Shown here in pieces: positions 400 through 54,458 of a stretch of DNA of 64,000 bases. Under the pieces are notes generated by a model, which was not told the DNA's origin, searched no databases, and worked only from the letters and a program-made list of their open reading frames with translations. Positions within the stretch are counted from its first letter, which is position 1. Each line of letters begins with the position of its first letter. Source of the DNA: Prorocentrum cordatum (lineage: Eukaryota); contig CAUYUJ010000181.1 in the NCBI GenBank assembly GCA_963575745.1, positions 124,001-188,000 on the forward strand, given 5' to 3'. The translations under genes were made by a program, and so were the position numbers.

Positions 400-418
400 C
401 TCGCAGAGAGCACGTAGA

Positions 419-613
419 GGCCTCCTAGATGGGGTCCGAGTACATGGGGTCGAAGGATCGCGCCGCATCGCCAATGCATCGCCGATGCATCGGCGATGCA
501 TCGGCGACACAGGCGTGGAGAAAATCGGGCTCCACATCGAGCCGCATCGTCGATGCATCGGCGATGCGGCGCAATCCTCGGACCCCATCTACTCGGACCC
601 CATGTAGGAGGCC
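419..613. mobile_element. MITE-like foldback element with ~65-bp terminal inverted repeats (TIRs) and a 4-bp TAGA duplication
   Basis: Ends are GGCCTCCTAGATGGGGTCCGAGTAC... and ...CTACTCGGACCCCATGTAGGAGGCC. TAGA lies at 415-418 and 614-617. A partial second copy is at ~46644-46720. Confidence 0.75.
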
Positions 614-949
614 TAGAGCACAACGAATGGAGGAGGGGGGAGGCCCCCGGGGAAGGAGGAGGATGAGGAGGAGGAGGCGGAGGAGGAGGAGGAGGAGGAG
701 GAAGAGAAGGAAGTGGAGGAGGGAGGGGCAGGAGCAGGAGCAGAAGGGGAAGAGAGAGCACATCTTTTGTTACTTATGAATCCCACCAGACCTCTGGGCG
801 TGAATCTGAATGGATTATCTCCCCCCTCGGGAAGGGGGTTATTGCTTCCCCCAGGGGGATCCGGGGCCCGGGGCCCGGGGGGTAATGTGCACCTTTGTTT
901 CGGCTCGTGGGCGTGGGAGGGGAGGGGACTCAACTCTTGTAACCCTCAC

Positions 950-1327
950 CGTCGTCGTCGTTGTCGGTCGTTGGTCGTTGGTCGTCGTGGTGCGTCGTCG
1001 TCGTCGTTGTCGGTCGTCCAGCAACGACCAACGACCGACGACGACGACGACGACGACGAACACAGCGCCAGAGCTCCAGGCAGTTTTCACTCGGCACCCC
1101 GGTCCAGCAACGACCAACGACCAACGACGACGACGACGACGCGAAAACGGCGCTGGAGCTCCAGGCAACGGGCAACGGTCCAGCAACGACCAACGACTGA
1201 CGACGACGACGACGACGCGAAAACGGCGCCGAAGCTCCAGGCAATTTTCACTCGGCACCCCAGTCCAGCTGCTGGACTGGACCAGGGTGCCGAATGAAAA
1301 TTGCCTGGAGCTCCAGCGCCGTTTTCG
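950..1327. repeat. (GTC)n/(GAC)n repeat cluster with a ~110-bp hairpin (1218-1327)
   Basis: CGAAAACGGCGC..GCTCCAGGCAATTTTCACTCGGCACCC pairs with GGGTGCCGAATGAAAATTGCCTGGAGC..GCGCCGTTTTCG. Direct copies of the arm are at ~1070 and ~1142. Confidence 0.75.
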
Positions 1328-1428
1328 TGTACAAGTTCGAGGGAACACTTTTGAGAATTTCTGCACTGCTGCAGTTTTTCTGAAAACGTGTTCCCTCCCT
1401 GTTTTCACCTCTATGGTTGGTGTGCATC

Positions 1429-5880: not shown

Positions 5881-6167
5881 AATGATATAAATAAATGTGA
5901 ATGTAATGATATTCGCCATGTAAAGAGTTGGCTTGGCGAATCAACCTTGAAACTTGAGACTGTCGAATGCTCTGACGTCGGCGCCGAATCGACTCCGCAC
6001 GAGAAGGGAAGGCGCAGTAGCGAGGGGAGTAAACGAGGAAAGGCTGAGGATGCACAAGAGAAGATCGCATGAAAGCTTGTCTGTCCAGCGTTTTCTTCAA
6101 CGCAGCATCTGACCTCGCGAAAGCTCAAGCGCTTCCGAGTCTGATGAACAGGGCGGCTTGTGCTACG

Positions 6168-9100
6168 TCAGTCTGACGACGTGCTCGAGCCCGAGCTAGA
6201 GCTCGACGACGCGGAGGCCGAGCTCGACGTAGAGGAAGAGGAAGGATCTCGCCTGAACTCCTCTGGTATCTGCCCTGCCATCTCGCCATCTAGATCCTCG
6301 TCTGGGCCCAACTCCCTGCGGTCATCAGGGGCCGACATGTGCCCAAACTCGCCTGCGCGGTCAGGGTATTGGAAGGCCATCAGCAACCATCTCTTCATAA
6401 CAAGACGCCATCTGCTTAACGCTGCCTCCAGCGTTTCACCTGCCTTCGGCTTGATGGTTCGAGTCCTGGTGCATCTGGGCTCGACCGTGCCATTCGGGCG
6501 GATCTGCGGCCGATGGAATCGGCACGTGCACTGCAGGGACACGGGCTTGCCAGGGCGCTCAGTGACGATGAAAGCGCAACCGAACCACTTGGACGACTCT
6601 GGATGCTTCTCACCATTGGCCTTCCCGCGGCGGCCCCGGCGGCGGCTGCCAGCTCCGTCGTCGCCCGCCCCTGGCGACCCTGGCGGCGCGTCTGGCGGCG
6701 GCGGCAGCGGGGGCCGCGGCGGCGAGCCTGGCTCCTCAGGCGGCGGCGCCTCCTCCGCCGGCGGCGCCTCCTCTGGCAGCGGCAGCGGGGGCTCCTCTAG
6801 GGCGACGAAATCTATGCATATCCACTGCTGCTGGCCAGGCTCATCCGGGGCCCAGGAGTAGTGTATGCGACCTCCTGGTTTGACCAAAGAGGCGTATACA
6901 GTATTCCTGGCCCCAGGATGGGCCTGGCTTGCAGCAGTGGACATGTATAAATCTCGTCGCCCTATCCTCCAGCGGCGGTGGAACTGGCAGCGGTTCCGCA
7001 TCGCCTGGCTGCCTGCCTCGCCCTCGACCACGTGCGCGGCCTCGCGCGCCCCGCCATGCGCCACCACCTCTCCTGCCTCTGCCTCGGCCCTGGCCCCGGC
7101 CTCGACGAGGCTGGAGCGGCATGCCATCCTGGTCGCCCTCGAAGTGGACGAGCACGCCCTCTCCGTCAACTTCAACAAGTTGCGTGTCGAACTTGCTCGG
7201 ATCCTTGCCATTGCAGACATGCTTGTAGTAGCCCTCTGGTTGCAAATGCAGAAGACGGTCGATCCCAATGGTCTGCATGAGGGCAGACGCTTGGCACAAC
7301 GCCAAGAGATACCACCGATTAGCAGAAGACTTCCAAGAGGCCCACCACACTTTCGAGCTAGCCTCACCTTCATCGTCGAAGCTCAAAGAAACCACTGCAG
7401 CCTTATCTTTCTTCGTTGCACCCTTTGGCAGCATCGAGTGAACCCAACCATGCTGGTGCAAGTATAGTATCAACTCCCACCTTGTAGCATCGCGAAGAGC
7501 GTCCGCCTCGGGGACTTGGGCCAAGGTGTTCTTCGGCGTGTCCAGGCGCAAGGTCAAGCGAAAGGAGTGTACCGCCTTGGCCGTTAATTGCCATGATGAG
7601 TGGCTCGACGTGAATAAGCAACACTGGACCAATCCGCTCCGCGCCATTGTTTCCAACGTCTTGCGGTCTCCGTCTCTGCTGCGGTGGTCCACGCACATCG
7701 AGGCATACTCAGTTTGCTGCGATATGAAGTCCGAGGAAGTACCAGGAAAAGCCCCACACGATGAGAGCTCAACAAGGAGACGGGATAAGTCTGCTGGGTC
7801 GACACCTTCCACACCATGACCTGCGTAATGGTATTCGACTCCTGCCTTAGTGTCGATGCTCCAAGACTCGACGGAGCTCATCATGTCATCGATGGTGCTG
7901 AGTCTGGGCGGTCCCCACACGTAACAACCAGAGGTGTTGACTGCATCCACCAAAGAGGCATGGTTCGTTCTCTGTGAGGGCTGCAAAAACACTGAAACTG
8001 CTGGGGTGCCTAACCGACCTTGATCACCATGGTTTTGCTGCACCTCGCGCACGCTGACAACTACGTCGTCCCTAGCAAATGCTCCGACTCGCTGCGAGGA
8101 TATCGTCACCTGGGAATCCCAGGGGAAGATGGTGAACTATCTCAGTAAGCTTCTGGGGGAGCTCCCTATTCGGCCTCAAAGCGCGCGAAGTGGGAGACAC
8201 GTACTGTTGGAGCCCATTGGGGCCTTCGCTGGACTCTACACCTACTGGCCGCCTTGAAGCCGTCTTGGTGTCTTGGTATTGCCTTGGATATTATCATATA
8301 TGCTTGCCCTTCCTGGTGCTGTCTTACAGGCCCAACAAAACTTATTATCTCCTCTTCCCCTTCGCCCTCATCCTTATGTCCTCCTCATCATTCTTCTCCT
8401 GCTCCTCCTCCTCCTCCTCCCCCTCCTCCTCCTCCTCCTCCTCCTCCTCCACCGCCTCCTCATCCTCCTCCTCCTGCTCACAGCCACCCTCGAGTTCGAT
8501 ACGAGGCTCAATACGAGGCGACCTGGTCTGCAGGCCGTCTGTGCACGACCCGGAAGAAGCACCGCTCGTCCACGAGGTCAGGCAGTTTGAGACCGCCTGG
8601 ATCGTCAGACTCATCTGTGAGGAATACCCCCCCTGCTTTGTGCAAGTTGTTGATCGCATGCGCGGACTCATCGATAACAGCGTCCATTGGGACGATGGAC
8701 ATCGGCCCTCCGACCTTGAAAGAGCACATAGTAGTTGGCGTGCACCGGCGGTAAAAATGATCGACGACAGCATCGTGGAACACCGACGTTGAATGACCAG
8801 CTGGCTCTTCATGCTCTTGATGCGCATCATCGCGTTTCCTTTTCTTGCCGCTGGGGTGTTTGGCCGAGGTGTCCGTGACATTGAAGGACTTCAAATTCCT
8901 GAATTGCGTGTGATGGTCACGCCTGTACACGACGGCTTCCACCAAAGGGTGATGATTGTGACCAACAAACACATCGTTGAAGGGCTTATTGCCAGACAGC
9001 ACAAGCGCTTCTTGAACAGCTGGGTGAGTAGCCAAATCAAGAGCCTGCAGACAGTTGCACATGCCGCGAACCTCGTCGATATGGTTGGTAAGCTCAGCGA

Positions 9101-12100
9101 ACATCTCTGGGCTGTGTTCGACGTGGTGTTCGAGTTCCCCACACCGCAACTGCAAACTGATGCCTGCCGAGGAATTCCGACTGGCGCGTTTGCCCTTCGT
9201 GTTGACGTCGCGGTGCCTGGATTCAATGTATGTCTCCACGATCGGAATGCAACGCAGCCTGGCCCTGACAAGGTACAAAGACGGAAGGTCTGACCAACTT
9301 GTCCCAAGTAGAAACTCAAGGAATTCTGCATGCGCCGTTCCCCCAGGGCAGCATAGAGAGCCAACAAGCCTAGACACTGTCGGGACACACTGCTCTCCTG
9401 AATCTGCGTGTGCACCAGATCTGAAAGTGTCGTAGGCTTCTTGGCAGCACCTGCGAGCCAGCTCTTCATCGATGTGGGCGAGGGCTAGAAACCGATGAGC
9501 GCCCGAAGTAAATACTGCAGTTTTTAAAGATATAACATATGCCATGTGACTGGCAGCACTGCTGAAGTCCGTGACGATCATATCACGCATGTTCTTGGGC
9601 AGACCTGCGATGAGAAAACACACGCTTGTCCGAGAGATCGAGGTGTGCTCGTCAATCAGCTCCTGGATTCTGCCAGCAGCCAGCGCCCCAACGCGTCTAC
9701 CGCGCATCGGGCACGTCGGATAGCTTGACGTTGGTGAAGCTCTGTGGTAGGCCCGGGATCGCTGCGCCCACGTCGCAAGCTTTCTTGTACCAAGGTCGCA
9801 GGAAGAATGGCAATCACACCCCCAAGCCCATTCCTCAATCTTCAGAAGGACTTTGTTTACCTGGATCAGCATCTTGCCGTACTGCCAGTGCGCTTCCGAA
9901 GTCACAAAATCGGTCGGTATGCCCTCATCCTCACCATCGTCAGGCTGGCGTAGCCCAGGCGCATCAATTTTCCGCCCATCCCAGTGCGCTCGCAAGGGGC
10001 CTTCGACCTTTTCGGGGACCGTAGAGCACGTCCTCCTCCTGCCCCCCTCTTCCTCCTCCTCCTTCTCCACCTGCTCCTGCTCCGAGTGCTGTTGCTGCTC
10101 AACGACAAGCACTCAACGACAGGCAACCACTCAACCAAGGCGGTGTGGTCGTGCTGGGGAGTGGTCGTGCTGGGGTGTGGTCGTGCTGGGGGGTGGTCGT
10201 GTGGGGGGGTGGTCGTGCTGGGGGGGTAGTCGTGCTGGGTGTGGTCGTGCTGTGGTGAGGTCGTGCTGGGGTCGTGCTGGGTGATGGCCTTGCTGGGGTG
10301 GGGTCGTGCTGGGGTGGGGCAATGCTGGGGTGTGGTCGTGCTGGGGCTGTGTCGTGCTGGGGTAGGGTCGTGCTGGGGTGGGGTCGTGTTGGGGTGTGGT
10401 CGTGCTGGGGTGTGGTCGTGTTGGGGTGTGGTCGTGGAAACGCACGGGTTCGTGCACCTGGAGAAGGCAAAATCTCTGGGGCGCCCAGATTCCTCAAGTT
10501 CTACAGAACAAGCGATTCGCTCGAGACATCCTCGGTAACTCTGCGGAGCAAGCGTTTCGCTCGAGACATCCTCAACACACGAAAGAGTGGCCCGCACCCT
10601 GTTATTTATCGATCGGGCGTTCAAAAACAAGCGTTTCGCACGAGACTTCCTCGGATTCTTACCTTTCCTGACATGAACGGGAAGCGCGTGAAAAGGACAG
10701 AGCTGCGCAAGAACGCGCAGCATCATCACGATAAAATGTAATGTAGGCGAGCTCTCCGAACGTCCACACGGGATACCTACGGACACGCGCTCCCCGAACG
10801 TCCACAAGGAGAGTCCTGATTATCCTCCTCACTTCTCTGTACGCCTCCAATGTCGTCCGTCTAGCCCTCACTTATCTGATGTGTTCGAAGGCCCGTCCGA
10901 AGGCACACACACGCACCCACACAAGCACACGCGCGCGCACACACCCAGGCCACCAAGATAGCCCAGAATCGTTCCAAGGCGGCCCAAGATGGCCTCCAGA
11001 CGGCCCAAAAGGCCTCCAACACGCCCCAAGAGGCCTCCAAGAGCCCTGCCAAGAGACATCAGATACAAGGAATGTCATAGACAAGGACGATCATATACAG
11101 GAACTCAATATAGAGGAAATATCATATACAAGGACCACCAGTATCATATACAAGGACCAAGTATCATATACAAGGTTATCCAAGAACACCCCGAAAATAT
11201 GTTTCATAGCAGCTCTTTCGACATCCCAGTTTTCCGAGCATGTCTCAGGCGAAACGGCCGTTTTTGAAGTTCCGAAAATTAGGCCAGCGATTTCAATATC
11301 CCGATTTTGTGAGGATGTTTCAGGCGAAGCGCTCATGTTTAACATGAGACGTCTTAAGACATAACCCCCAACTTCACGATTTGGCGAGGATGTCTCAGGC
11401 GAAACGCTGGTTTTGGGAATCCGCCAGGCTCTGAATCACGAGGCGGCGCCGCACGTTCCCCTTCCAGACCTCCCCCAGTTGATAAGTAAATCCCTCTGGG
11501 CAAACAGACGTCCATCGCGCGACTCTTCGAGTCTTGGCGCGCTTCCCGTCATCCGCCGGCCCACCTCGACCTCGATATTCATCAAGGAAAGAATCCGCCG
11601 CCGGCCCACCTTAGTTGAGGCACCGGGGACAGGTTGACCAACTAAAAGAGAACTCTGGGCTGGCGCCCTTTCTGGGAAAAAGGGAGAGGAACCAGTGGGG
11701 TAGACCTCGAGAATTTCTTCCATTGCTTGTATCACGTACCCCCATCGCATGTCGACGATATCTGGAGCTAGTACTCGAATCTTCTCGGCAGACCACGAGG
11801 CAGGCGGTGAGGAAAAACATTGAGCGATTACACGGTCCCTGTAGGTCTTTCTCTTCATGAAACCGCAGAACACTTTGAATGCTCTCATGAACCATTTGAA
11901 ATTCATCATTGCGTGCAGCACGTCTTTCGCCGCATTGTGGATGATATGCATGAGCCCAGGCACCTTTGGGGCTGAGAAGCGCGGGAGATTCAGCCTGGTT
12001 CCTAGGAGGATTCCTCTCCCTCTTGGGCTCAGGCCCTGCAGCCCTAGGCCCTTGAGCCTTGAGCCCGTGGCTGAAGGCTGAGAGGAGGCGAACAGGGATT

Positions 12101-14780
12101 CGCGCCTGTTCGTCTGGACTCCAGGGCCTGGCTTGGAGAGGAGAGGAGTCCTCCTATGAATCTGGCAATCCCACCGGCACGCTTTGTTCTGACTTCTTCT
12201 GTTCAGACCCCTTCTTCCCCCGCGAGACGTTGGAGCGTTTTTTCTACCGAAGGAGTTGGGAGGAGGAGGACGTGAGAGAGCAGGAGAAGGAGGAGGAGGA
12301 GGAGGAGGAGGAAGAAGAGGAGGAGGAGGAGGAGGAGGAGGAAAAGGAGGAGGAGGAGGAGGACGAGCGAGAGAGGAGGGGAGGATGGACTCCAGGACGG
12401 CCTGTCTAGCGCTCCTCCTTCCTTTTCCTTCAAAGGAGGATCATGAGGGTCTGAGCTGGCGCTGACGTGGAACGTGGGAAGCCAGAGACACCAGAGGGGA
12501 AACGCGATCCCCAGGACCCTAGGCCCTGGACCCCTGGTGAGGTCGGAGACATATTGTTTTCCTCCCTCCTCCTCCTCCTCCTCCTCCTCCTCCCTCCCTC
12601 CTCCTCCTCATCTTCCTCGCAGTCATCCTCCTCCCTCCTCCTCCTCTCTCTGCACGCTCCCCCTCCCCTCCCTCCTCCTCCTCCTCCTCCTCCTCCTCCT
12701 CCTCCTCCTCCTCCTCCTCCTCCTCCTCCTCCCCCCCGCCCTTTTCCTCGTCGTCCTCCTCAGGTCCTCCCTCCTCATACTCCTCCTTCATCCTCCCCCT
12801 CTTCCCCCTCGCACTCCTCGTACCCTCCACGTCGCAGAGCCCAGTGCCTGCGCGGCGCTCTCGAAGTACATCTCGTCATGGGCAGGACTGTCAGCCTCCA
12901 GAGCCTCCAGTTGTGCGACGCCACCGCCCATCAAATCTGAGTCTGCCAATTCCATGTCCAGCTCATCAGCGAAGACGTCCACATCTTGGTCCTGCGCTGG
13001 CTGGAGGTCCCGAGGTGACTCCGAATGTTCGCAAGTAAACATGCTCTGGAAACCTGGCACCAACTCTTCCTCCTTGATGCTAGCACTCGTATTGGCCAAG
13101 CCGAGCTCCGCTCCCATATCCGCGGCGAATGAAACGATACTCCTCGCGAACTCCCGAACAAGTGGCCATGAACCGTTTTCAAGCCGGCACTGGTGTAGGA
13201 AGCCATGCAGCTTATGCTGAAAATATGACGCACCAGCTCCCACGGCAACACAGGGCATGGTGTGCAAACTGATCGAGGATGTTATGGTGGTCTCAGCTTT
13301 GGCAATCGCTTCAACCTCGGCCTGAGTGGCATCGCAATCGTCAGTGCCCTGCCGCCGCCGTTGCTGAGCACGTAGTTCGACCAACGTGTCAATCGCCTGC
13401 GACAGCGGCACCAAGTCGTCTTCCAAGACTACTGCGCAAGAACTGATCAACCAGTCGGCACCACATTGCTCACTCGAATCGACCATGAAATATCTCGCTG
13501 GAAGCTTGCCATGGGACTTCGCATCTTGATTCATTCGGCGATGCCACAGCATATAACCAGCGTCGACGGACAGTTGGAAGCGTGACAGGGTTCCAGCTGA
13601 AGGCAGCGGTACATCATGATTTGATATCATGTCGACTATGACGTCAGCAAACTCAGTCGGCAAGGCAATATTGATGGACGCTTGAATTGCTCGGCTAAGT
13701 AAAGAGAAACTCTTGAGGCTTCGTGAGAGAAGAAGGTAACGCAACATGTAAGCCGTCTCAAACACTTGATGGCCCCCACCGCTTGGCCGCAGCGACCCCT
13801 CTTGGCGTTAAACTCGCTGCGCACCTATCAAGCCACATTACCATTTCTTCCAAAGCTGGTCGATCAGACGGGGATGCCGACAAAATGTGAGGGGCCCATT
13901 GTCTCAACATCTTGGATACCCCATCGGCGCGAACTTGCACGTCCAAGATGCTGGAACGTTCGGAGGAGCCAACGACGTGGATGTCAACGTGGTCCCTCAT
14001 CGCCTTCGCGTCCTCGAATATGGCATCGATCTTGGCGTTTCCGCCTCTGGCTTTCGGCTGCAACAGGCCGATGTGGCTGACCGCGCCACCGCAGATCAAA
14101 TCAATTAGCACAGGGTGTGGGAAGTAGGCTGTAAAGCAGAACCCGTCACCACCAAAGTTCACGCCATGCCCTTGCAACCAACAACGGACCGTGTTGGACC
14201 TCGGAGTGGCGGTACCCCCGACCTCTGAGAACAACTGGCCGGCTGGATTCGGCACGTTCATTGAGCCAGTTAGGTCCAGCAAGCGTGTTGAGGATAACCA
14301 AGAAATAGAAGTTAATGTCCTCAAGAGCTTGCTATCTGAATAATCGGACTCGACCCAGCCAACCGGGGATTCGAAGCACATAGCTTCAGAAATGCTGAAA
14401 AACACCTCACGATCGGTAACACTATTTGCTGACAACATGTGGTGCGCCAGTTGATGCCAACGCGTGCACAAGCATAAAGGACCAGAGTACACTTCGCCAG
14501 GCAAAGCAAGCATGATGATACCATAAGCGATCATGTCGCCAGTTGTATCGTTCATTGAATGAAGACGATGAGGACCAACGAGGCCATCGCCTGGCTTGGT
14601 CTCTTTGAAATCAATTGCTGACATGCCCCAGTCATCGCGAACCTTCGCGATGTCCTTTTGAAATATCTTGGGGATCAATTTTGCTGCATCAACTGCGTTC
14701 ACAACGCCACCGCCATCAGCGACACCAGCAGCACGGAGCGCGCGCGTGCGCCTGCTCCTCTGCCTCTGGTTCGCCGCCAT
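6168..14780 (-). CDS. Large (~1810 aa) divergent hAT-like DDE transposase; exons 14780-12848, 11963-11706, 10007-8523, 8109-6967, 6794-6168; one 1-nt frameshift at ~13772-13776
   Basis: Motifs follow hAT order: RYFMVDSS (D ~13480), SFAADMGAE (D ~13120), PGLMHIIHN, VDMRWG, PIVETYIESRH (E ~9224). All four junctions are AG|G and phase 0: ESAAQ|VPGLMH, EILE|VEGPLRAHWD, RPADQ|VTISS, PPPLE|EPPLP. There is a C-terminal QCTCRFH...C motif. Confidence 0.7.
6798..6964. mobile_element. Introner-like foldback MITE forming intron 4 (6966-6795) of the transposase
   Basis: A 167-bp palindrome TAGGGCGACGA...TCGTCGCCCTA whose arms match at 60/72 positions. The 5-bp duplication TCCTC is at 6793-6797 and 6965-6969. 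Confidence 0.85.
10140..10437. repeat. 16-bp minisatellite (GGTCGTGCTGGGGTGT)n in transposase intron 2
   Basis: Visible degenerate tandem units. Confidence 0.9.
10505..11410. mobile_element. Foldback-like element with modular inverted sub-repeats in transposase intron 2
   Basis: GCGTTTCGCTCGAGACATCCTC (10552-10573, about three copies) is inverted to GAGGATGTCTCAGGCGAAACGC (11386-11407, about three copies). Internal ATCATATACAAGGA repeats lie at ~11085-11175. Confidence 0.55.
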
Positions 14781-15832
14781 GGGCGAACATATCAAAAGAG
14801 GAAGCTGCATTAAGCGAAATGCCCACATGATCGTACCTGATCTGATGAGCTGGCGGCGGAGTGTTTGTTGTTCTCTCTGTTGTCGTGATCATGCTTCTCC
14901 TCCATCTCCTCCTCCTCCTCCTCCCCCCTTTTCTTGCCTGCTCACATTCTCCTCTTCCTTCTCCTTTCTCGCCCGTCCGTTCGGAGGCAACTGTTTTATG
15001 GGCGAAGCTCAGATATGCGTTCTCATCACTGACAACACAAGCTTCAAATGTGACGCCAGAGGGAGCGATGCCTAAGTCTGCACATGAATCCACCGGGGCC
15101 CCTGAAAGTCCCCCAAGGCTTGCGAATTCCCCACTTCATCTATGCCTTTTTGCTCGCGTTCGTGCCCGCCAAACCCAAATTCTCCTAATGCGCAGTCAGG
15201 CTACTGAAAGACATGCGAAGGAGGCGAGGACAAAGAGGCGGAGGCTAGGATGCTCAGGCGACGAGGGGGGAGAAGAAGGAAGAGGACGAAGATGAGGATG
15301 AAGATGATCCCGGGGAGAAGGAGGAGGAGTAGACCAGTCCTCGAGGAGGAGGAAGAACACGAGGACGAAGACAGGGGGAGGAGGAGGAGAAGGAGAAAGC
15401 ATAGCATGCAGATGACCCCGAGCTTGCTTGCTTGCACGCGGCTGCTGGACAAGATTACGCAGTACTCCAATGCTCGCAAGAGACATCTAACGCATATGCG
15501 CACCAGCACTCGTGCACGAGGTGACTGACAACACGCTGCACGCGAGCTGAGCAACCCGTCACAGGGTAAAACTGCTAGAAAGATTCACATGTCCGCCGTC
15601 CGCACCGTGCTGGTGCTGCTGCTATGCCAGGTGCGCACGGCTGCGCATCCCGAAGCTCGATGGCTCCGAGGCAGTGCGTGCACATCGGTCCAGAGATACT
15701 AACCCACCGGGAGGAGGAGGAGGAGGAGGCTGCGGGCGAGATAGAAAGCGAAGTGACTTGAAAGTACGACCACTAGGACCAGGGAGGTCCAGATGGTCCA
15801 GAGCACAGGGCTGCAACTCGACTGCTAGAAAC

Positions 15833-16597
15833 TCACGGCGACGGGGGCGGCGGCGGCGGTGGCACCGGTGCGTCACTGAAGTACTTGGCGATGTCTGGCG
15901 GAGGTAGCTCCAGTCGACGTTTCCGCGCGGCGCCCCCCATCCACGCAGGGCAAGGCGAGCCATCTAGGCCATCCTTCCACTCCCCAGCCGCGCCGCGGAA
16001 TGGGCTCGAGCTGTGGTGTAGCTTCGCTATGTTCTTCACCTTGCTGACAATGCTGTGCTCGCGATGGGCACGACGACGTTCGGGGCTCTCACTGTTGACA
16101 ACGATGGTGTCATGCGGCGGCGCCGCCGCCCCCGCTGGCCAGGTCCGCTCCTCCACAGGCTGCTCAGGCGGATGACGCCGCGGGGGCGTCGTCGGCACCC
16201 TGCTGCCCTTCGGCGAACCGCCGCGGCTGCGGCGGCGGCTGTCATTGCGCTTGCGCCCACTGCGGCTGCGGCGGCTGTCCTTGCGCCCACTGCGGCTGCG
16301 GCAGCGGCTGTCCTTGCGCTTGCTGCCCTTGATGCCCTTGCGCTCGCTGTCCTTGCGCTCCCTGTCCTTGCGCTTGATGTCCTTGCGCTCCTTGTCCTTG
16401 TGGCTGTCGTCCTTGCGCTCACTGCCCGTGCGCTGCTGCTCGTCGTACTGAGACTGCAGTTGCTTCGTGCGCAAACGAGCCTTCAGCAACTTCACCTCCG
16501 CCTCCGCCCGCTTCTCCTCGAGCTCAGCTTCGCGCAACTGGTCCGACATCCACAGCTTCGGCATGGCTTTCGCCCGAGGGGCGATTAGAATCACCAT
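15833..16597 (-). CDS. Intronless retrogene: coiled-coil plus RD/RS-rich protein (start at 16597 or 16564)
   Basis: A 254-aa ORF (MPKLWMSDQLREAELEEKRAEAEVKLLKARL...RSRSGRKDSRRSRS) starting 40 nt downstream of a relict SL. Confidence 0.65.
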   Translation of the reverse strand: MVILIAPRAKAMPKLWMSDQLREAELEEKRAEAEVKLLKARLRTKQLQSQYDEQQRTGSERKDDSHKDKERKDIKRKDRERKDSERKGIKGSKRKDSRCRSRSGRKDSRRSRSGRKRNDSRRRSRGGSPKGSRVPTTPPRRHPPEQPVEERTWPAGAAAPPHDTIVVNSESPERRRAHREHSIVSKVKNIAKLHHSSSPFRGAAGEWKDGLDGSPCPAWMGGAARKRRLELPPPDIAKYFSDAPVPPPPPPPSP

Positions 16598-16635: not shown

Positions 16636-16657
16636 TTTGAGCCAAAACGGCTATGGG
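16636..16657 (-). other. Relict dinoflagellate spliced leader
   Basis: CCCATAGCCGTTTTGGCTCAAA versus DinoSL DCCGTAGCCATTTTGGCTCAAG; 18 of the 21 invariant positions match. Confidence 0.88.
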
Positions 16658-18425: not shown

Positions 18426-19108
18426 TTGAGCTTTGAAGAAATCACGCCCGGAGGTTTTTCGGCATGTTCGGCCCCTGGGGGGGGCCCTCGCCAGCCCTCG
18501 GGACCGTGAGCAAAACGACTCGGGATGAAGAGCGGTCCCGGTTGAGGGGTCGAGACCTCTGGGGGTCGACATCATGACAAAAACACACAACGTCGGGGGT
18601 CTGGGTACACATGCGATACGAAGTCTTGCCGTAATATGTGTAGGGAAACGCCTGTCGTCGAGCGAAGGGGCTTCCTGCGGTGCTCCAGGGCGCCTGGTCC
18701 TCCTCTTCTTCCTCCCCTGCCTCCTCTTCCTCCTCCTCCTCCTCCTCCTCCTCCTCCTCCTCTTCCCCCCCTCCACCTCCTCCTCCCCCCTCTCCACCTC
18801 CTCCTCCCCCTCTCCTCCTCCTCCTCCTCTTCCTCCTCCTCCTCATTATTATCCTCCTCCTCCTCCTCCTCCTCCTCCTCCTCCTCCTCTTCCTCCTATT
18901 CCTTTGAGGGCTACCACGGGGGAGCGGAACTCTCAGTGTGGACGGTACTGGCTGCGCGACGTCTTACTTGATGCGCCCACGTTAGGCGCGGAAGGACCCC
19001 GGGCCCTCAGGCGCCCGACTTGGGGCCGACGCTGGAGTCCCCTCGCCCATGGCCGAGGGCCAGATGGTCTGGATGGGCTGGCTCGGAGGCACGGGCGCCA
19101 AGTACCGA

Positions 19109-19243
19109 CCAGTCATAACTGGGGGAGCTGTGGTCCTTACCCCCCTGGGGCAGCCCATCGCATCGACGATCTCTCGAGAGGGGTGTCGAAATCGATGGGT
19201 CCCCCAGGGGGGTAAGGACCACAGCTCCCCCAGTTGTGGCTGG
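19109..19243. mobile_element. Short MITE-like hairpin with perfect 34-bp arms
   Basis: AACTGGGGGAGCTGTGGTCCTTACCCCCCTGGGG (19117-19150) has an exact reverse complement ending at 19235. Confidence 0.75.
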
Positions 19244-22200
19244 CCTGAAGTGCGCCCCTGAAGCCTTACTCGTCCCTCATCCTTCTGATGCAGTTCGGCT
19301 GAAGGTCAGGACGGTGTCCTGACGTGAGCGAGAAGGCCGACGACCTGGCGCTTCTAGAGAAAGAACAAGCGGCATACACATAAGCTTTCGGAGCTCCGCG
19401 CGGATTTATCGGATCGGCGCTGGACGCCCCTCCATGGCGCGCGCAGCGCGCTGAGGGCGGCGCCGGACGGCACCGAAGTCCCCGTGGGCGAGACAGAGAG
19501 GACACGGAAGGGAACCACATGCCTTTCCAATCCCGCAGGGCTCAAGCACCACAGGCCTGCCCAAAGGCAAAGGGTAGGCACCACATGGCTTCCCGCATCC
19601 TGTGATGCTTGCATTCTACGAATCACCTCAAGTATGAGCTCATTGAGACTTGTGTTCAACAGTCTCCACCTCCTTCTCCTTGTCCTACCCTCCTCGTGCC
19701 CCTCCTCATTGGATCTCGGCGTGATCCTCCTCCCCTCTCTCGACGATCATTCACGACATGATAGCGAGGCCTCCCTCGTCCTCGTCTACATCCTCCTTGT
19801 CTCCCCCTCTGCGTTCTGCGGCTGCTTCTTCCTGCTCCCTCCTCCTCCTCCTGCCCCCCCTCCTCCTCCTCCTCCTCCTCCTCCTCGTCCTCCTCCTCCT
19901 CCTCCTCCTCCTCCTCCTCCTCCTCCTCCTCCTTCCGCATCCTGTGGTAAAAGCGATGGCGTCGGCGGCAGCGGCCGCGATAGAGGTAGGGGGAAGGCGG
20001 AACAGGATGTGGATGGATGGAGTATGAGAAGGACGAGGACGAGAAGATGAGCAGGATGGGAAACAAAAGGTGCAGCAAGAGGATGAGGAGTGGAAGGGAT
20101 AGTGGAGGAATGGAAGATGATACCAGTGCTTACAATAACGATGTGTGTGCGACCCCCCAGCTCCACCCAGAGACTGACTAGGGGCACCTGGGCTCTTAAG
20201 GCTCAAAGACGCGCGCTTGCTGACATTGCGGTGGCGCAGGAGGGGGAGGAAGAGAACACTGCGAAGGGAAATGGGGGGGATGCGGGGAACAAGTGGGATC
20301 AGGAGGACGAGGCGGAGGTGCTGGTCGAGAAACCTCGAACAGGAGGAACAGGAGCGAGAGCAGGGCGCACGGGGAGGCGGAGGAGGAGCAGCCACGGCGA
20401 GGGGCGGGGGATGACGAGGAGGGAGGGCCAGATAGAAGGACGCCGACGTGCAGAGGAGGACTAGGCGGCGGACGAGAAGGACGAAGACGATTGGATGAAG
20501 AACGACGAGAACCAAGAGGAGGAGGAGGAGGAGGAGGAGGAGGAGGAGGAGGAGGAGGAGGAGGAGGAGGAGGAAGAGCAGAGGAGAAGAAAGAGCAGCA
20601 GCAACAGCGTCGGCAGGAATACTGTGAGAATAACTTATGGTGGTGGCTGGCAGAAGGGGTCCTGGAACTTGCCGAAGTCGACTTTATGTCGGCCAGTCTT
20701 CTTGTCCAAGAAGACGCACCTGGCAAACTCCTCACCCGCGGCACGCGGAATGGACCTCGCTCCCACATCCCATGCCGTCCTCCTCCGTTTCATCCACCTC
20801 ATTCTCCTTTCTACCCCTCCTCCACCGCAGCCTATCCCCATCATCCTGGTGCTGCACCTCCACAACTTGCCTGTGTCCACCTCCACCTGTTGCTCTTCCT
20901 CGTCATCATCACCATCATCATCAGCATCATCATCATCATCATCACCATCATCATCACCATCATCAGCAGCATCATCACCGTCATCAGCATCCTCATCATC
21001 ATCATCATCAGCATCATCGTCATAATCATCGTGATCCACTTTCCCCCTCGTCAACACCATCCAGCTATTCGTCCCCATGCCCCGACTCATCCTTTTATCA
21101 ACATCATCTGTCACCGGTGCTTACCATGTTGCCCTCCATCCGTCACTTGTGCCTCGCAACCCTCCCTCCTCCCTCCATCCACTCTCCTCCATCCATCCCT
21201 CCTCCCCCCACACCCTCCCTCCTCCCGTCGCCAAGGCCTCATCATATGAGCCCGCTCCTCGCAATGTGTGCAAGTGTGGTCATCATCTCCTTAACCACTC
21301 CATTATCATCACCACCACCACCATCGTCATCATCATCAACAACATCATCAGCATCAACATTAGCATCAGCATCATCATCGTCATCACCAGCAGCATACTC
21401 ATCATCATCATCATCATCATCATCATGATCATCATCATCATCATCATCATCATCAGCACCGTCAGCATCATCATCAGCAGCACCATCATCAACATCATCA
21501 TCATCCTCATCATCCGCATCATCGTCCTCATTATCATCCTCATCATCAGCATCAGCATCATCAGCATCATCATCGGCAGCAGCAGCATCAGTATTGGCAT
21601 CAGCCTTCTCATCATTGGCATCATTATCAACAACAAAAACAACCAAAACCAATCACATCACAACCATCATCATATCCTGACTCCGCCACCTCCTCCTCGT
21701 CATCATCATCATTACCAACACCTTCATCATCTCATCAGCATCGGCATGACCATCACCATCATCAACAACGACACCATAATCAGCATCAGCATCATAATCA
21801 TCATCAGCATCATCGTCATCATCAGCATCATAATTACCCTCACCAACCGGATCTTAATCCACTAGACTGGCATGCATGCCCTTGCCCCTTGCCATCTTCT
21901 GCCTCCTCATGCTTGTCCTCCTCGTCGTATCTCTCCTCACCCGCTTCGTCCTCATCGTCGGTATGCGCTGCTCCCGCTGCTGCTCCTCTTGCTTCTGGCC
22001 CTCTCCTACTCGTCAACCCCCTTCCTCCCTAATCATGACGACGATTCCTATTCCAACCCCTCTACCAATTCCAACTACTCACCTTGTCAGCCGCCAGCCC
22101 CTCGTTATCCCCCCATGTCAGCCCCATCATCAAATTCTGGGCCCCGTTGACCATCACCATCATCACCATCATTGTCAGTACCAGCATCGGAGCATTCACC

Positions 22201-45845: not shown

Positions 45846-48800
45846 TGGGAGAATCGCGGGGCCCATTCCAAATCTGTCTTGGGAATCGTTAAGTCATCGT
45901 TTGGGAACATATGCGATCATCAGTCGCACAATCAAGACACACTTGCACTCCACTTCGCTGCCCCACGCGCAATATGCAAGAACGCCCGCACGCATGAACG
46001 ATAATGGATGGACGGCGCGTGTGCCCGCGCGGGCAACGCGCGGGCACGAACGCTGGCCCTCCATGACCGCCCACATTGGATGCCAATCGTACCCGATCAC
46101 ATACATGAGCGATACATTGAGCATACATGGGCCATTCTGTCCCCATTGAAGACTCCCTGTTGCAGACCCGCTCTTTCACCCTCCAAGAAAAAACAGTACG
46201 CGGAGGGGGGCCGGACATTTCCCAGACGCCACCAGGGGAGAGAGGAGGGTACTATTCATGTTGTCTAACTGCGCAAGGGGAAGAGGGGAGGGGAGGGGAG
46301 GGGAGGGAGGGCAGGGCGTAGAGGCATGGAACGGGGGAGGACGGGAGGGGGTGGGCGGGCAGGGCAGGCGAGGGAGCAGGCGCGGCAGCTCCTCCTGGCC
46401 CCATATGTTAGCGTAGACCTCCTCTGGCGTCGGGTCCCTGTCGCCTTGCTGCGGCCGTGGCGCTCTCCGAAAAGGGCTGCGGCGGGCTGGGCGGTCGGCG
46501 AGGGCATGGCAGGGGCGATTGTAGAGGCCTCCTCGTCCTCCTCCTCCTCCTCCTCCTCCTCCTCCTCTTCCTCGTCGCTGGTTCTCCTCCTCCTCCTCCT
46601 CCTCCTCCTCCGCTTCCTCCTCCTCCTCCTCCTCCTCGCCCGCGATGGGGTCCGAATTGCTGGGGTCGGAGGATCGCGCCGCATCGTCGATGCATCGCCG
46701 ATGCATCGGCGATGCGTCGGCGCCAGCTCCTTCCTCAACACTCGTTTTTGTGTTTTGTTTGTTTCTCCTCTCTCTCTCCTTCCTCCTCTCCCGCCTCCTC
46801 CTCTCCTCTCCTCCTCTCCTCTCCTCCTCCCTCTCCCCTCCTCCTCCTCCCTCCCCTCCCTCCCCCTCCCCCTCCCTCCCTCCTCCTCTCTCCTCCTCCT
46901 CTCCTCTCCTCCTCCTCCTCCTCCTCCTCCTCCTCCTCCTCCCTCCCCCCTCCCCCTCCCCTCCCTCTCCTCTCCTCCTCCTCCTCCTCCTCCTCCTCCT
47001 CCTCCTCCTCCTCCTCCTCCTCCTCCTCCTCCTCGCTCGTCCTCCATCGCTTGCGCCCCTTCCCTGGGAAACAAAGGTCCTGTGGGGGAGACCACAAGGT
47101 ACCAATACCGCTGCTCCCCGGACCTCTTCTGGGGTGCGTTCTGACCAGGATTTCGAAGCGAATCCAGCGGTGGCGACGAGGGCCTCCCAGGAGGCGGGAA
47201 AAAGGGAAAACAGGCGAAAAGGTGGAGGTATGGGAACCTTTCCCTCCTCTGACCTGTGCGGGGGAGGAGGGCGGGGCTGCAGTCGGCCTTCGCCTTCGCC
47301 GTTTGCGACGGGATCTATGTGCCTGGCCCGTCCTGGGCCCAGGGATGTGTACTCGAAGAAGAAAAGCGGCATACACATAAACTCTTGGCGCTCCGCGCAG
47401 ATTTCTTGGATCCGCGCTGGGCCCCCCTGGCGGCGCCTCCGGCGCCGCCCCTGGCGCGCTCCGCGCGCCAGGGAGGGGGGGGGGATCCAGCGCGGATCCA
47501 AGAAATCCGCGCGGAGCGCCGCATGTTTGTGCTCATGCCGCTTGCTTCTTCTATGTATACGCCTCTCTGGCCAAGCCGGGACGCTGTAGACGCCGTCCCT
47601 GGGCCCAAGTTGGGCCAGGTCTCGGGGAGTGGATATGTACAGATCCCGTCGCCCGTCGAGTGGACTCGGAACGTGCGTCGGATCGGGCTGCATCCGCCCC
47701 GGAGTCGAAGTCAAATCGGATCGGCCGTGCCAGGACGCACACCAAGGCCATGCGAACACCGGGCCAGACTGGGCCGTCGGAGCATCGGAACCGAGCCGGA
47801 TCGGGCGGGCCGAAATGGACCGTGCCTGGGAGGGAGCCTGCGCCTGCGTCCTGGGTCGTCCCGGGGGAGCTTTGAGGGCCAGCCGAGACAGGAGCGCGGC
47901 TCTCTCTCTCTCTCTCTCTCGCGTTCGTCGAGTTTGGGGGGCCTCCCGGAAGCTTTTCGTCGCCAGCTGGACTCGCCTCGTGGAACGGGTCCCCAGACAT
48001 CCGCCGAGATGATTGTTTCAACCTGCGGCCCCAGAAGTCCCGACCCCTTCCCCGGGGGTGGTTTCTCGTCCTGGATATTTTTGTGAATAACGGGCCAGGA
48101 AAAACCGCCAGATTGAAAAAATCAACCCTCGGATCTCTGGGTCTGGATGGACTCGGGAGGGGCCCAGGGACCGGGGACCCATTTAGAGCGGACTCGGGCC
48201 GAGCAGTAACGCTGCCTCTGTCTATAAACTGGCCCTCCTCTGGGGGACGGCCCTTCGCGGGTGCTGTAGGTGGTGGCGCCAGGGCCGCAGAGTGGAAGAC
48301 AGATCCTGGCCGACTCGGTCCTCCAATATGGCTGAATACAATCAAACCGTAATTAAGGATGCAAGGGCCTTGGAAGGCCATGTTGACACTTTGCGAGCAG
48401 GCCGCGGCCAGCTGAAGCGGCCAAGGATGGACCGAGGAGGCAAGGCTGCAACGGTACCCTTGGGAAGGCTGCCGCCCCTCCTTACTCTGCGGGTTGACTG
48501 TACGGCTGGATATGACTCCAATACGGCCCAACATGCCCTCCAGACAGCCCACGAAGCCCCAGCAGGGCTCCGAGAGGACCTCCAGAGGGCCAAAATCATC
48601 TGTCTCCCCTCATGGGTTTCAGAAGTGTTCGTGGTCTCGATGCTTCGGGCTTCAGGTAAAGCGCGAAAAGATTGCCACGCGACGGCCCAGGAAGGCCTCC
48701 AAGACGGCATCCGACTGCCAAAAGGTCCCTTAGCACCCAGAGGCCCCAAGAGGTCCCCGAGAGAGGCACTCGAAGCTGCCTCCGAGGGGCCCTGGAGGCT

Positions 48801-52154: not shown

Positions 52155-54458
52155 CCCAACCAACCTGTTGTTGGGTCCTCGCATTGAACACAAGGTCCCG
52201 CGTTCCTCCTTCCTCCTTCCTCCTTCCTTCCTTCCTTCCTCCGCCTTCTCTCCATCCCTTCTCCCATTCCTGCCTTTGTCGCCCCCGCCCAGCACTCGTT
52301 TCGCGCCCCCACAGGGAGCTCCACCGAAGGCCTGAGTCGCTGCGCTCGCATGCGCCCACCGCACCCACTTCGGCACACCCCATCACATGCTTCGTGGCCC
52401 TATAGGGAGGTCCACCGAAGGCCCCAGTGGCTGCGTTCGCATGCGCCCACCGCACTCATTTTGGCACACCCTCATAAGTTCCGTGGCCCCATGGGGAGCT
52501 CCACCGACGGACCTAGCGGCTGCGTTCGCATGCGAACGCCGCACCCATTTTGGCACACCCCTCACACGTTTCGCGCCCCCTCGGGAGCTACACCGACGGC
52601 CCCAATGACTGCGCGCGCATGCGCCCAACGCACCGCGCCCATGTTTGGCACGCCCCACGCACACGTTTCGTGGCCCATGGGGAACTCCATCGACGGCCCG
52701 CGTGGCTGCGTCGCATGCGCCCACCGCACCCATCTTGGCACAGCCCGCACACGTTTCGTGGAGCTCCACCGAGGGCCCCAGTGGTTGCGTTCGAATGCGC
52801 CCACAGCACACATCCTGGCACACCCCTCACACGCTCCGTGGCCCCATGAGGAGCTCCATCGACGGCCCCAGTGGCAGCGATCCCATGCGCCCACCGCGCC
52901 CATTTTGGCACACCCCTCATACGCTCCGTGGCCCCATAGGGAGTTCCACCGACGGCCACAGTGGCTGCACTCGCACGCGCCCACCGCACCCATTTTCGGC
53001 ACACCCCTCACATGCTTCGTGGCCCCACAGAAAGCTCCATCGACGGCCCAATGGCTGCGTTCGCACGCGCCCACAACACCCATGGTGGCACATCTCTCAC
53101 ACGCTTCGCTGCCCTATAGGTAGCGCCACCGACGGCAACATTGTCTGCGTTCGCATGCGCCCACCGCCGTTCGCATGCGCCCACCGCACCCATTTTGGCA
53201 CACACACACACACACATACATGCACCTCGTACGTTTCGCGGCCCCTTCGGGAGTTCCAACGACGGTCCAAATGCCAGCTATCGCATGCGCCCGCCGCATC
53301 AATTTTGGCACACCCCTCACACGTTTCGTGGCCCCACAGGGAGCTCCACCGACGGCCTCAGTGGCTGCGTTCGAATGCGCCCACAGCGCTCATCCTGGCA
53401 CACCCTTCGCCGGTTACGTGGCCCCACAGGGAGCTTCACCGAAGGTCCACATGCCAGCGATCGCATGCGCCCACCGCGCCCATTTTGGCACACCCCTCAC
53501 ACGTTTCTTGGCCACACAGGGAGCTCCACCGTCGGCCCCAGTGGCTGCCCACCGCGCCCATTTTGGCACACCCCTCACACGTTTCGTGACCCCACAGGGA
53601 GCTCCACCGACCGCCCCAGTGGCTGCGCTCGCATGCGCCCACCGCACCCATTTTGGTAACCCCTTCCACGCTTCGTGGCCCGATAGGGAGCTCGATCGAC
53701 ACCCCACTGGCTTCACTCGCATGCGCTCACCGCGCCCACGTTGGCACACCTCGCATACGCTTCGTGGCCCCACAGGGGGCTCCACCCATGGTCCACATGC
53801 CAGCGATCGGATGCGCCCACCGCACCTATTTTGGCACACACTCCGCACGAGTTGCGTGGCTCCACAGGAAGCTCCACGGACGGCCTCCGTGGCTGCGTTC
53901 GCATGCGCCCACCGCACCCATCTTGGCACACCCCTCGCACGTGTCGTGGCCCCCAAAGGGAGCTCCACCGACGGCCCCAGTGGCTGCGTTCGCATGCGCC
54001 CACCGCGCCCATTTTGGCACACCCCTCATACGCTTCGCGGCCCCACAGGGAGCACCACCGACGGCCCCAGTGGCTGCGTTCGCATGCGCCCACCGCGCCC
54101 ATTTTGGCACACCCCTCATACGCTTCGCGGCCCCATAGGGAGCACCACCGACGGCCCCAGTGGCTGCGTTCGCATGCGCCCACCGCGCCCATTTTGGCAC
54201 ACCCCTCACTCGTTTCGTGGCCCCACAGGGAGCACCACCGACGGCCCCAATTCGCATGCGCCCGCCGCACTCATGTTGGCACACCCCTCACTCGTTTCGT
54301 GGCCCTACAGGGAGCACCACCGACGGCCCCAATGGCTGCTTTCGCATGCGCCCGCCGCACTCAATTCTGGCAAATCCCTCACACGCTTCGTGGCCCATTG
54401 GGAGCTCTTCCGAATGCGGTGCATACATCGACGGTGCTCACGACTGCAGATGGTTGGG
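52155..54458. mobile_element. Satellite-bearing element, copy C (more diverged ~90-bp units, ~52295-54415)
   Basis: Left end CCCAACCAACCTGTTGTTGGGTCCTCG. The right end CTGCAGATGGTTGGGTCTTTCGCCAGGCTATTTTTTCT matches copy A. Confidence 0.7.

What the first reader, a model, noticed from the sequence alone, without database searches (positions are those of the whole stretch)
6793..6969. An intron that is exactly a foldback transposon plus one TSD: both splice sites come from the duplicated GAG|GA
Seen: a 167-bp palindrome (arms 60/72 identical) flanked by a 5-bp duplication, GAGGA on the sense strand. The 5' copy gives a non-canonical GA donor (GAG|GA) and the 3' copy gives the AG acceptor. 167+5 = 172 nt is exactly the intron needed to join two out-of-frame ORFs scarlessly (PPPLE|EPPLP). 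Established: dinoflagellates tolerate GA donors and contain Introner elements. Inference: with GA donors, any insertion that duplicates GAGGA becomes a perfect intron, so a (GAG)n-rich genome offers abundant harmless landing sites. Here the host is itself a transposase gene.
Basis: partly seen in the sequence, partly recalled or inferred. Interest (0 to 1): 0.85.

Follow-up and report, generated by a model that had tools for sequence, protein, structure and literature searches.

The report
Hairpin mini-transposon as probable introner intron
A small, many-copy hairpin transposon sits inside a dinoflagellate-type gene, and the five bases it duplicated on insertion could act as both splice sites, a way of making introns already described in dinoflagellates but not confirmed by RNA here.

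Summary
The anatomy is confirmed. The element is 167 bp (6798-6964) with 72-nt arms, 60 of 72 complementary. It has TA termini and an exact 5-bp duplication, GAGGA on the sense (minus) strand.

It is a real mobile repeat. DNA contigs of the best-holding run pile up 35- to 200-fold on it relative to the single-copy flanks, and their homology stops at 6963-6965. Relatives lie at about 47.3-47.65 kb in the window and on two metagenome contigs.

It interrupts a real gene. Two homologues carry the upstream and downstream domains in one continuous protein.

Removing 172 nt (6966..6795) gives a GA..AG intron and joins PPPLE|EPPLP. That scarless join is automatic for any insertion with a target-site duplication, so it is not evidence of splicing.

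No RNA run holds the locus, so splicing is inferred. One independent copy (L002) has the same CAG|GA-TAGGG layout in phase 0. The downstream domain is intact although the arms have diverged by about 8%.

The mechanism is already published: Polarella introner classes 12-14, including a 5-nt NAGGH duplication. The "transposase" label for the host gene is unsupported.

Verdict: a new member of a known kind, of modest interest.

The parts
6798..6964 (.). 167-bp palindromic MITE-like element with TA...TA termini; GC 55.7% against 75.3% and 65.7% in the 300-nt flanks
   Evidence: multi-copy in run X1, where summed depth is 278-1490 in the element bins against 5.5-8.3 in unique flanks
6798..6869 (+). 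left arm (72 nt)
   Evidence: aligned to other family arms
6893..6964 (+). right arm (72 nt, 60/72 complementary to the left arm)
   Evidence: four X1 contigs and one X4 contig lose homology at 6963-6965 (table 8)
6870..6892 (.). 23-nt loop between the arms
6965..6969 (-). target-site duplication, 5' copy on the sense strand (GAGGA); GAG is the last codon of the upstream exon and GA the proposed donor
6793..6797 (-). target-site duplication, 3' copy on the sense strand (GAGGA); its AG (6796-6795) is the proposed acceptor, and GA (6794-6793) begins the next exon
6795..6966 (-). proposed 172-nt GA..AG intron, phase 0 (inferred, no RNA evidence)
6967..8109 (-). upstream coding exon (D); 109 homologue clusters
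6171..6794 (-). downstream coding exon (E) with a conserved KWFGC..C.FH..C..R.R domain; stop codon at 6168-6170
8110..8522 (-). probable 413-nt GT..AG intron between exons C and D, with CCAGGT repeated at both boundaries
8523..10112 (-). further upstream coding exon (C) of the same gene
47300..47655 (.). diverged, larger relative of the element, with a second palindrome (47364-47543) inside it; no readable TSD

Best explanation
A non-autonomous, palindromic (hairpin) MITE of a multi-copy family inserted into the proline-rich linker that joins two conserved domains of a large, multi-exon gene. The gene belongs to a dinoflagellate-type family of unknown function. Insertion duplicated the 5-bp target GAGGA (pattern NAGGH). 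The element carries no splice site of its own, since its termini are TA...TA. The duplication supplies both sites: exon ...GAG|GA-TAGGG...CCCTA-GAG|GA... exon. Splicing of this 172-nt, phase-0 GA..AG intron would restore the pre-insertion mRNA exactly. The 72-bp stem would place donor and acceptor side by side at the base of the hairpin.

Shown: the anatomy, the multi-copy nature, the position inside coding sequence, and splice-compatible dinucleotides.

Inferred: that the spliceosome actually removes it, and at these junctions.
For: TIR and TSD.

Repeat family: X1 depth is 278-1490 over the element against 5.5-8.3 over the flanks. Other contigs' homology ends at 6963-6965, and organism B (X4) holds a contig 90% alike over 6908-6965. 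There is a second relative in the window and two metagenome contigs carry the element end.

Coding host: 109 homologue clusters. P0002 and P0005 carry both flanking domains collinearly. The spacing from the HFE(G)E motif to KWFGC after excision is about 113 aa, against about 105 and 135 aa in the two homologues (counted by eye).

The gene has other interruptions that behave as introns.

Independent copy L002 has CAG|GA-TAGGG at phase 0 of a 174-codon open frame. The background frequency of NAGGH is about 2-2.5%.

The 12 arm mismatches are mostly private to one arm or the other, so the copy is not new. Yet exons C, D and E (1119 codons) have no stop. The simulated chance after 8.3% neutral change is 0.005 for D+E and 0.24 for E alone. 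The conserved Cys/His/Trp positions of exon E are intact.

Published precedent: a 5-nt NAGGH TSD supplying both sites, and GA donors enriched in young introns.
Against: There is no RNA evidence of any kind.

The scarless join is automatic for any TSD-flanked insertion.

The age argument assumes perfect arms at insertion. For the one exon whose translation depends on splicing, it gives only P = 0.24.

L001 has GATTC next to the element and lies 245 nt past a PPR gene's stop. The 47.6-kb copy has no readable TSD.

L002's open frame has no Pfam hit, and its contig ends inside the element.

There are 143 alternative in-frame junction pairs.

A very stable 72-bp stem could hinder as well as help the spliceosome.
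Confidence: 0.55

Rival explanations
1. It is a plain disruptive insertion. The element is transcribed but not removed, the upstream frame runs into the stop at 6843-6841, and the protein loses its C-terminal KWFGC domain, or the gene is a young pseudogene.
For: No RNA evidence of splicing. About 12.7% of target 5-mers in these exons would mimic splice sites by chance. Exon E staying open has P = 0.24 even under neutrality. The host belongs to a large, diversified family (109 clusters) in which single copies may be dispensable. Long open frames are common in this GC-rich window.
Against: Exon E keeps all residues conserved with P0002 and P0005, in a single frame. Exons C and D are also intact. 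L002 has the same NAG|GA layout in phase 0. Dinoflagellates are reported to splice GA-donor, TSD-derived introns efficiently.
Confidence: 0.25
2. It is spliced, but not at the TSD junctions. The GA donor at 6966 or another G[TCA] pairs with one of the AG|GAG acceptors in the (GAG)n-rich downstream exon, or with sites inside the element. This changes the length of the low-complexity linker by a few codons.
For: 143 in-frame G[TCA]..AG pairs were enumerated. Several have boundary repeats as long as or longer than the TSD junction, for example 6967/6752, 6967/6767 and 6967/6749. Gozashti et al. 2022 report introners that add or delete neighbouring codons (passages).
Against: The TSD junction is the only one that restores the ancestral sequence, and it sits at the base of the hairpin. 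Published TSD-recruiting classes use the TSD sites.
Confidence: 0.15
3. It is not a transposon at all, but a local inverted duplication or an assembly artefact that happens to be flanked by a short repeat.
For: GAGGA-like words are common in the neighbouring (GAG)n/(GGC)n sequence.
Against: Depth over the element is 35- to 200-fold that of the flanks, with many separate contigs. Homology breaks exactly at the element end. Relatives exist elsewhere in the window and on two metagenome contigs with unrelated flanks. An X1 contig of 1590 nt carries the element joined to exon D (record 3), though X1 may be the source sample.
Confidence: 0.02

Closest known systems
Polarella glacialis introner-like elements, class 12 (5-nt TSD) and classes 13/14 (4-nt AGGH TSD); Roy et al., bioRxiv 10.1101/2020.10.14.339549 (parts 1-2 of 4 read)
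   Same: A DNA-transposon-like element with a TSD. With a NAGGH duplication both the 5' (GH) and the 3' (AG) splice sites come from the TSD. The exon is restored exactly. GA donors are typical of young introns. Strong phase-0 bias is expected, and this intron is phase 0.
   Different: Class 12 elements are said to begin with C, whereas this one begins with TA. With an NNAGG target this family would therefore make a GT donor rather than GC. No sequence comparison with the published classes was possible because the supplements are closed. The organism here is unnamed and GC-rich. Nothing here shows splicing.
Symbiodinium introner-like elements with a 4-nt TSD (Roy et al. preprint; Gozashti et al. 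2022 PNAS, PMC9860276, Fig. 2B legend)
   Same: Inverted repeats plus a TSD, with the TSD supplying the 5' splice site, in dinoflagellate genes.
   Different: Those elements carry their own 3' splice site at the element end and have a 4-nt TSD. Here the element carries neither site and the TSD is 5 nt.
Amoebophrya introner elements (Farhat et al. 2021, PMC7789003; passages)
   Same: Inverted repeats at the intron ends plus 3-5-nt direct repeats overlapping the exon/intron boundaries. A hairpin is proposed to bring the exon ends together.
   Different: The inverted repeats there are 8-20 nt and the splice motifs are highly non-canonical. Here the arms are 72 nt, nearly the whole element, and the boundaries are an ordinary dinoflagellate GA..AG.
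Florenciella introners that co-opt both splice sites from the insertion site (Gozashti et al. 2022, Fig. 2E legend)
   Same: The element carries neither splice site.
   Different: A different lineage (stramenopile). The details of TSD and TIR were not read.
Miniature inverted-repeat transposable elements (MITEs) in general
   Same: Short, non-coding, with TIRs, a TSD and many copies.
   Different: The arms cover 144 of 167 nt. No autonomous partner or superfamily could be assigned.

Membership tests
Introner element (transposon-derived spliceosomal intron) | Belongs to a family of similar sequences present in many copies in the genome | tested here: met
   In X1, summed contig depth is 278-1490 over the element against 5.5-8.3 over the flanks. 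62 contigs were laid. Relatives at 47.3-47.65 kb, L001 and L002.
Introner element (transposon-derived spliceosomal intron) | Lies inside a protein-coding gene, so that its removal restores the reading frame | tested here: met
   Homologues P0002 and P0005 span both flanking domains. Removing 172 nt joins the frames.
Introner element (transposon-derived spliceosomal intron) | Its boundaries are used as splice sites in RNA | not testable with these tools
   No RNA run holds the stretch. No near-identical protein exists in the libraries: best identity 42% and none found.
Introner element (transposon-derived spliceosomal intron) | Many family members are themselves introns of different genes | tested here: inconclusive
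   No genome is held. Of 3 other copies, L002 lies in an open frame with the same layout, L001 is 245 nt past a PPR gene's stop, and the 47.6-kb copy lies in uninformative GC-rich sequence.
TSD-recruiting introner class (both splice sites from a NAGGH/AGGH duplication; Polarella classes 12-14) | The TSD has the pattern (N)AGGH, with AG used as acceptor and GH as donor | tested here: met
   The TSD is GAGGA on the sense strand. The L002 flank is CAGGA. Use as splice sites is inferred.
TSD-recruiting introner class (both splice sites from a NAGGH/AGGH duplication; Polarella classes 12-14) | Same element family as Polarella class 12 (element begins with C) | tested here: not met
   The element begins with TA. 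The class 12 description was read. The match is therefore in mechanism, not in family.
MITE | Short, with terminal inverted repeats, a TSD and no coding capacity of its own | tested here: met
   167 bp, 72-nt arms, 5-bp TSD. Searches with the translated element found no protein.
Foldback (FB) transposon superfamily | Very long arms built of tandem subrepeats, and a 9-bp TSD (features recalled from memory, not from a call) | tested here: not met
   The TSD is 5 bp. The repeat finder on 6600-7200 listed no tandem subrepeat within the arms. 'Foldback' applies only as a description of shape.
   No Pfam family reached its curated cut-off in the 7 window ORF pieces or the 14 homologues up to 1881 aa. 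The only hits were four sub-threshold ones, two in the 8511-10112 piece and two in homologues. NCBIfam gave 0 of 6, PDB 0, and the Atlas no usable hit.

The most novel reading that the evidence does not exclude
This could be a still-uncharacterised introner family of a GC-rich dinoflagellate. It would be a near-complete hairpin that carries no splice signal at all. It would persist in coding sequence only where its 5-bp duplication reads NAGG[H], or NNAGG, which with the element's terminal T would give a canonical GT donor. Its 72-bp stem would clamp the two TSD-born splice sites together. If so, tolerance of GA donors together with (GAG)n-rich exons would make about 2-13% of exon positions safe landing sites. 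The family would then allow a direct test of how hairpin structure and the TSD alone suffice to create an intron.
Probability: 0.3. Interest if true: 0.5.

Novelty: new member of a known kind. Interest (0 to 1): 0.3.

Why it matters
If splicing is confirmed, this locus is a clean single-gene example of intron birth. The element brings no splice signal, and the 5-bp target-site duplication alone provides a GA donor and an AG acceptor. That supports the published model for why dinoflagellate genes are so rich in introns and why GA donors mark young introns. The principle is already in print for Polarella. The added value here is therefore limited to a new element family with very long hairpin arms and TA termini, in another GC-rich dinoflagellate-type genome.

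Tried and rejected
RNA evidence: the look-up of sequencing runs listed no RNA holder. The one read-laying run could therefore use only DNA contigs. No DNA joint skipping 6795-6966 (an empty site) was listed. Runs X7 and X8 gave no cover over the element, which is no proof of absence.

Whole genome: none is held, so no census of copies or TSDs was possible.

Protein searches with the translated element, meant to sample flanks of other copies: none found among longer or near-length proteins. The first word-based search with the upstream exon also found nothing. The exhaustive search did find homologues.

Scans with the TIR pattern: 0 in viral contigs and 0 in genome contigs.

Three 1-mismatch matches to the 11-nt terminus (52392, 54297, 57056) proved unrelated on alignment.

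The Atlas gave nothing. The search of earlier findings gave nothing.

I considered reading an AT-rich stretch of L002 flanked by GAGGTGC as an intron. I dropped this because it does not join the long open frame.

The 47.6-kb copy gave no readable TSD.

A full-text search for 'introner' with 'foldback' found 0 papers.

Full report
**1. Observation**

The plus strand holds an inverted repeat with arms 6798-6869 and 6893-6964. Each arm is 72 nt, the arms are 83% complementary (60/72), and 23 nt lie between them. The element is 167 bp and begins and ends with TA (TAGGGCGACGA...TCGTCGCCCTA). It is flanked on both sides by tcctc, at 6793-6797 and 6965-6969. That is GAGGA on the minus strand.

I scanned the whole window for terminal inverted repeats with an exact 5-bp flanking repeat. 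This gave 4 hits, 3 of them inside (GAG)n tracts, and this element was the only non-low-complexity one. Folded as RNA, the sense strand forms one long hairpin: -126.8 kcal/mol, z = -12, 0 of 200 shuffles as good. The element has 55.7% GC, against 75.3% and 65.7% in the 300-nt flanks.

**2. It is a mobile, multi-copy element**

No whole genome is held for this window. One DNA run, X1, holds 0.70 of the sampled words of 6000-10200. X1 may be the source sample.

I laid Logan contigs of X1 on 6300-7500 at 80% likeness or better.
- The unique flanks have a summed word depth of 5.5-8.3.
- The element bins have 1490 (6792-6832), 300, 278 and 730 (6915-6955).
- The tool warns that depth is not a copy number, but the contrast is 35- to 200-fold.
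- Four other X1 contigs (records 5-8) and one contig of another organism (X4, record 16, 6 differences in 58) match the right arm and stop matching at 6963-6965. That is exactly the proposed element end.
- One X1 contig shows a variant that skips 6828-6904 (table 5).

Inside the window, a diverged and larger relative lies at about 47300-47655. It is 71-75% identical over 57-101 nt (E 2e-9) and encloses another palindrome at 47364-47543.

A scan of metagenome contigs with a degenerate pattern for the terminus found two contigs, L001 and L002. Scans of viral and prokaryotic genome contigs found none.

Aligning the six available arms gives a shared terminus, TAGGGCGACGAGATCTATACATATCCACTGCCCCTGGCCAGGCCCATCCTGGGCCCAGGAG. 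The flanks are unrelated to one another.

**3. It sits inside a real gene**

The upstream minus-strand frame (6967-8136) has 109 homologue clusters at E <= 1e-3 in an exhaustive HMMER search. Thirteen reach 1e-10 or better, and the best is 42% identical.

Two of the 109, P0002 (366 aa) and P0005 (409 aa), align to the upstream frame. In the same polypeptide they also align to the downstream frame 6171-6794 (E 2e-9 and 3e-14). The shared downstream motif is KWFGC..IVT.R..S...C.FH...C.R.R..P, and every one of those residues is present here.

In those homologues the order is RG-rich, then proline-rich, then basic, then KWFGC, without interruption. The element lies in the proline-rich part.

Ten of the 109 also align to the next frame upstream, 8511-10112. 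tblastn of long homologues (1600-1900 aa) maps collinear blocks at 13705-13049, 11999-11703, 10031-8520, 8067-6967 and 6605-6276. The host is therefore a large multi-exon gene on the minus strand.

Between 8523 and 8109 the best in-frame join is a 413-nt GT..AG intron with CCAGGT at both boundaries. It was the top candidate of 42.

The host is not recognisably a transposase.
- Pfam listed no family for 6 of the 7 window ORF pieces. The seventh (8511-10112) had two hits far below their cut-offs.
- Pfam listed no family for 12 of 14 homologues. The other two had only sub-threshold, low-complexity hits.
- NCBIfam gave none for 6 proteins.
- The PDB sequence search gave none for P0044.
- The Atlas gave no usable hit.
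- Cluster names could not be looked up.

A 21-nt match, with 3 mismatches, to the dinoflagellate spliced leader lies at 16636-16656 on the minus strand, just upstream of an open frame. None of 100 shuffles gave any match. This fits a dinoflagellate origin, as do the GC-rich, low-complexity exons.

**4. The intron reading**

On the sense strand the sequence reads ...CTG GAG|GA-TAGGG...CCCTA-GAG|GAG CCC.... Removing 6966..6795 (172 nt) gives a phase-0 GA..AG intron followed by G, and joins ...PVPPPLE|EPPLPLP.... Without removal, the upstream frame stops at 6843-6841 inside the element.

Two cautions apply.
- Removing an element plus one TSD copy restores the original sequence for any transposon insertion. 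The exact fit is therefore not evidence of splicing.
- The splice-like dinucleotides are not very improbable. With TA termini, 12.7% of the 3345 5-mers in exons C-E would allow an exact G[TCA]..AG excision, and 2.0% are NAGGH. In addition, 143 in-frame G[TCA]..AG pairs exist around the element, several using the same GA donor with AG|GAG acceptors further into the (GAG)n-rich exon.

**5. Indirect evidence for splicing**

(a) L002 was found without regard to its flank. It reads ...ACC CAG|GA-TAGGGCGACG..., which is a NAGGA flank in phase 0 of a 174-codon open frame unrelated to the host gene here. That frame has no Pfam hit, and the contig ends inside the element. L001, by contrast, has GATTC next to GGGCGACG. 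It lies 245 nt beyond the stop of a PPR-repeat gene, a place where no splicing is needed.

(b) Of the 12 arm mismatches, 10 can be polarised by a majority of the other family arms. Derived states fall on both arms. X1's majority bases at 6847 and 6942 restore pairing (table 3, read). This suggests about 8% private change since a near-perfect palindrome. A simulation of 8.3% neutral substitutions leaves exons D+E stop-free in 0.5% of trials and C+D+E in none of 1500 trials. Exon E alone, the only exon whose translation depends on splicing, stays stop-free in 24% of trials. The inference is therefore suggestive, not strong. It also assumes the arms were perfect at insertion.

(c) After excision, the spacing between the two domains (about 113 aa) falls within the range of the two homologues (about 105 and 135 aa; counted).

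**6. What is known**

I read parts 1-2 of 4 of Roy et al. (bioRxiv 10.1101/2020.10.14.339549). The preprint reports the following.
- Symbiodinium introns made by elements with inverted repeats and a 4-nt TSD that supplies the 5' site.
- Class 12, with a 5-nt TSD. With NAGGH it takes both sites from the TSD. With NNAGG it uses the terminal G plus the element's first base, C.
- GA donors are commoner in recently gained introns.
- A GH dinucleotide follows the acceptor.

Passages of Gozashti et al. 2022 (PMC9860276) describe families in which both splice sites come from the TSD or from the insertion site. Passages of Farhat et al. 2021 (PMC7789003) describe Amoebophrya introners with 8-20-nt inverted repeats and 3-5-nt direct repeats over the boundaries, and a hairpin that joins the exon ends. 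Passages of a Prorocentrum cordatum genome preprint (10.1101/2022.07.25.501386) report introner elements enriched in a 59.7%-GC dinoflagellate genome.

This element differs from class 12 in starting with TA rather than C, so I do not place it in that family. A full-text search for 'introner' together with 'foldback' found no paper. The near-complete hairpin shape may be undescribed under that name, though hairpin-forming introners are described.

**7. Verdict**

The insertion, the TSD, the multi-copy family and the coding host are shown. Splicing at 6967^6794 is a reasonable inference, which I put at about 0.55. A further 0.15 goes to splicing at other junctions and about 0.25 to a plain disruptive insertion. 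The finding is a new member of a known kind. Its interest is modest unless RNA data and a genome-wide census show an active family of this type.

Noticed in passing
window 418-614: Another long-arm palindromic element: 71-nt arms, 90% complementary, flanked by a non-palindromic 4-bp direct repeat, TAGA. It is unrelated in sequence to the element studied.
   Followed up: partly
window 1215-1330, 19094-19258, 41145-41288, 47364-47543: Four more hairpin-type inverted repeats, with arms of 54-67 nt at 79-89% complementarity. Together with 418-614 and 6798-6964, that makes six long-arm palindromes in 64 kb. Such elements seem common in this genome.
   Followed up: no
window 16636-16656 (-): CCATAGCCGTTTTGGCTCAAA matches the dinoflagellate spliced leader with 3 mismatches. 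The motif was recalled from memory, and none of 100 shuffles gave any match. It lies just upstream of the open frame 15833..16597 (-). It may be a relic leader of a retroposed gene.
   Followed up: no
window 8110-8522 (-): The probable 413-nt GT..AG intron of the same gene has the hexamer CCAGGT at both boundaries and no inverted repeat inside. The repeated boundary resembles the TSD signature described for dinoflagellate introns.
   Followed up: partly
window 10031-11703 and 11999-13049 (-): The host gene's homology blocks are separated by gaps of about 1.7 kb and 1.0 kb that correspond to almost no residues in the homologues. The gaps hold inverted-repeat clusters (10504-10655 against 11233-11415) and long CT/GA-rich arms (12258-12389 against 12632-12798). 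These are probably large, repeat-filled introns. Their boundaries were not resolved: 441 and 808 candidate pairs.
   Followed up: partly
window 6171-14888 (-) and proteins P0001-P0109: The host belongs to a large family of proteins of up to about 1900 aa: 109 clusters at less than 50% mutual identity. None reaches any curated Pfam cut-off, and none has an NCBIfam, PDB or Atlas match. The C-terminal KWFGC..C.FH..C module looks like a small Cys/His domain. That reading is inference.
   Followed up: partly
window 52310-52417 and 54215-54322 (-): Two copies of another repeat that begins TAGGGCCACGAA. They are similar to each other but not to the element studied.
   Followed up: no
L001 3-356: This metagenome contig carries a PPR-repeat gene end (PF13041, E 3.8e-14). 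A copy of the element's terminus lies 245 nt downstream of the gene's stop codon.
   Followed up: yes
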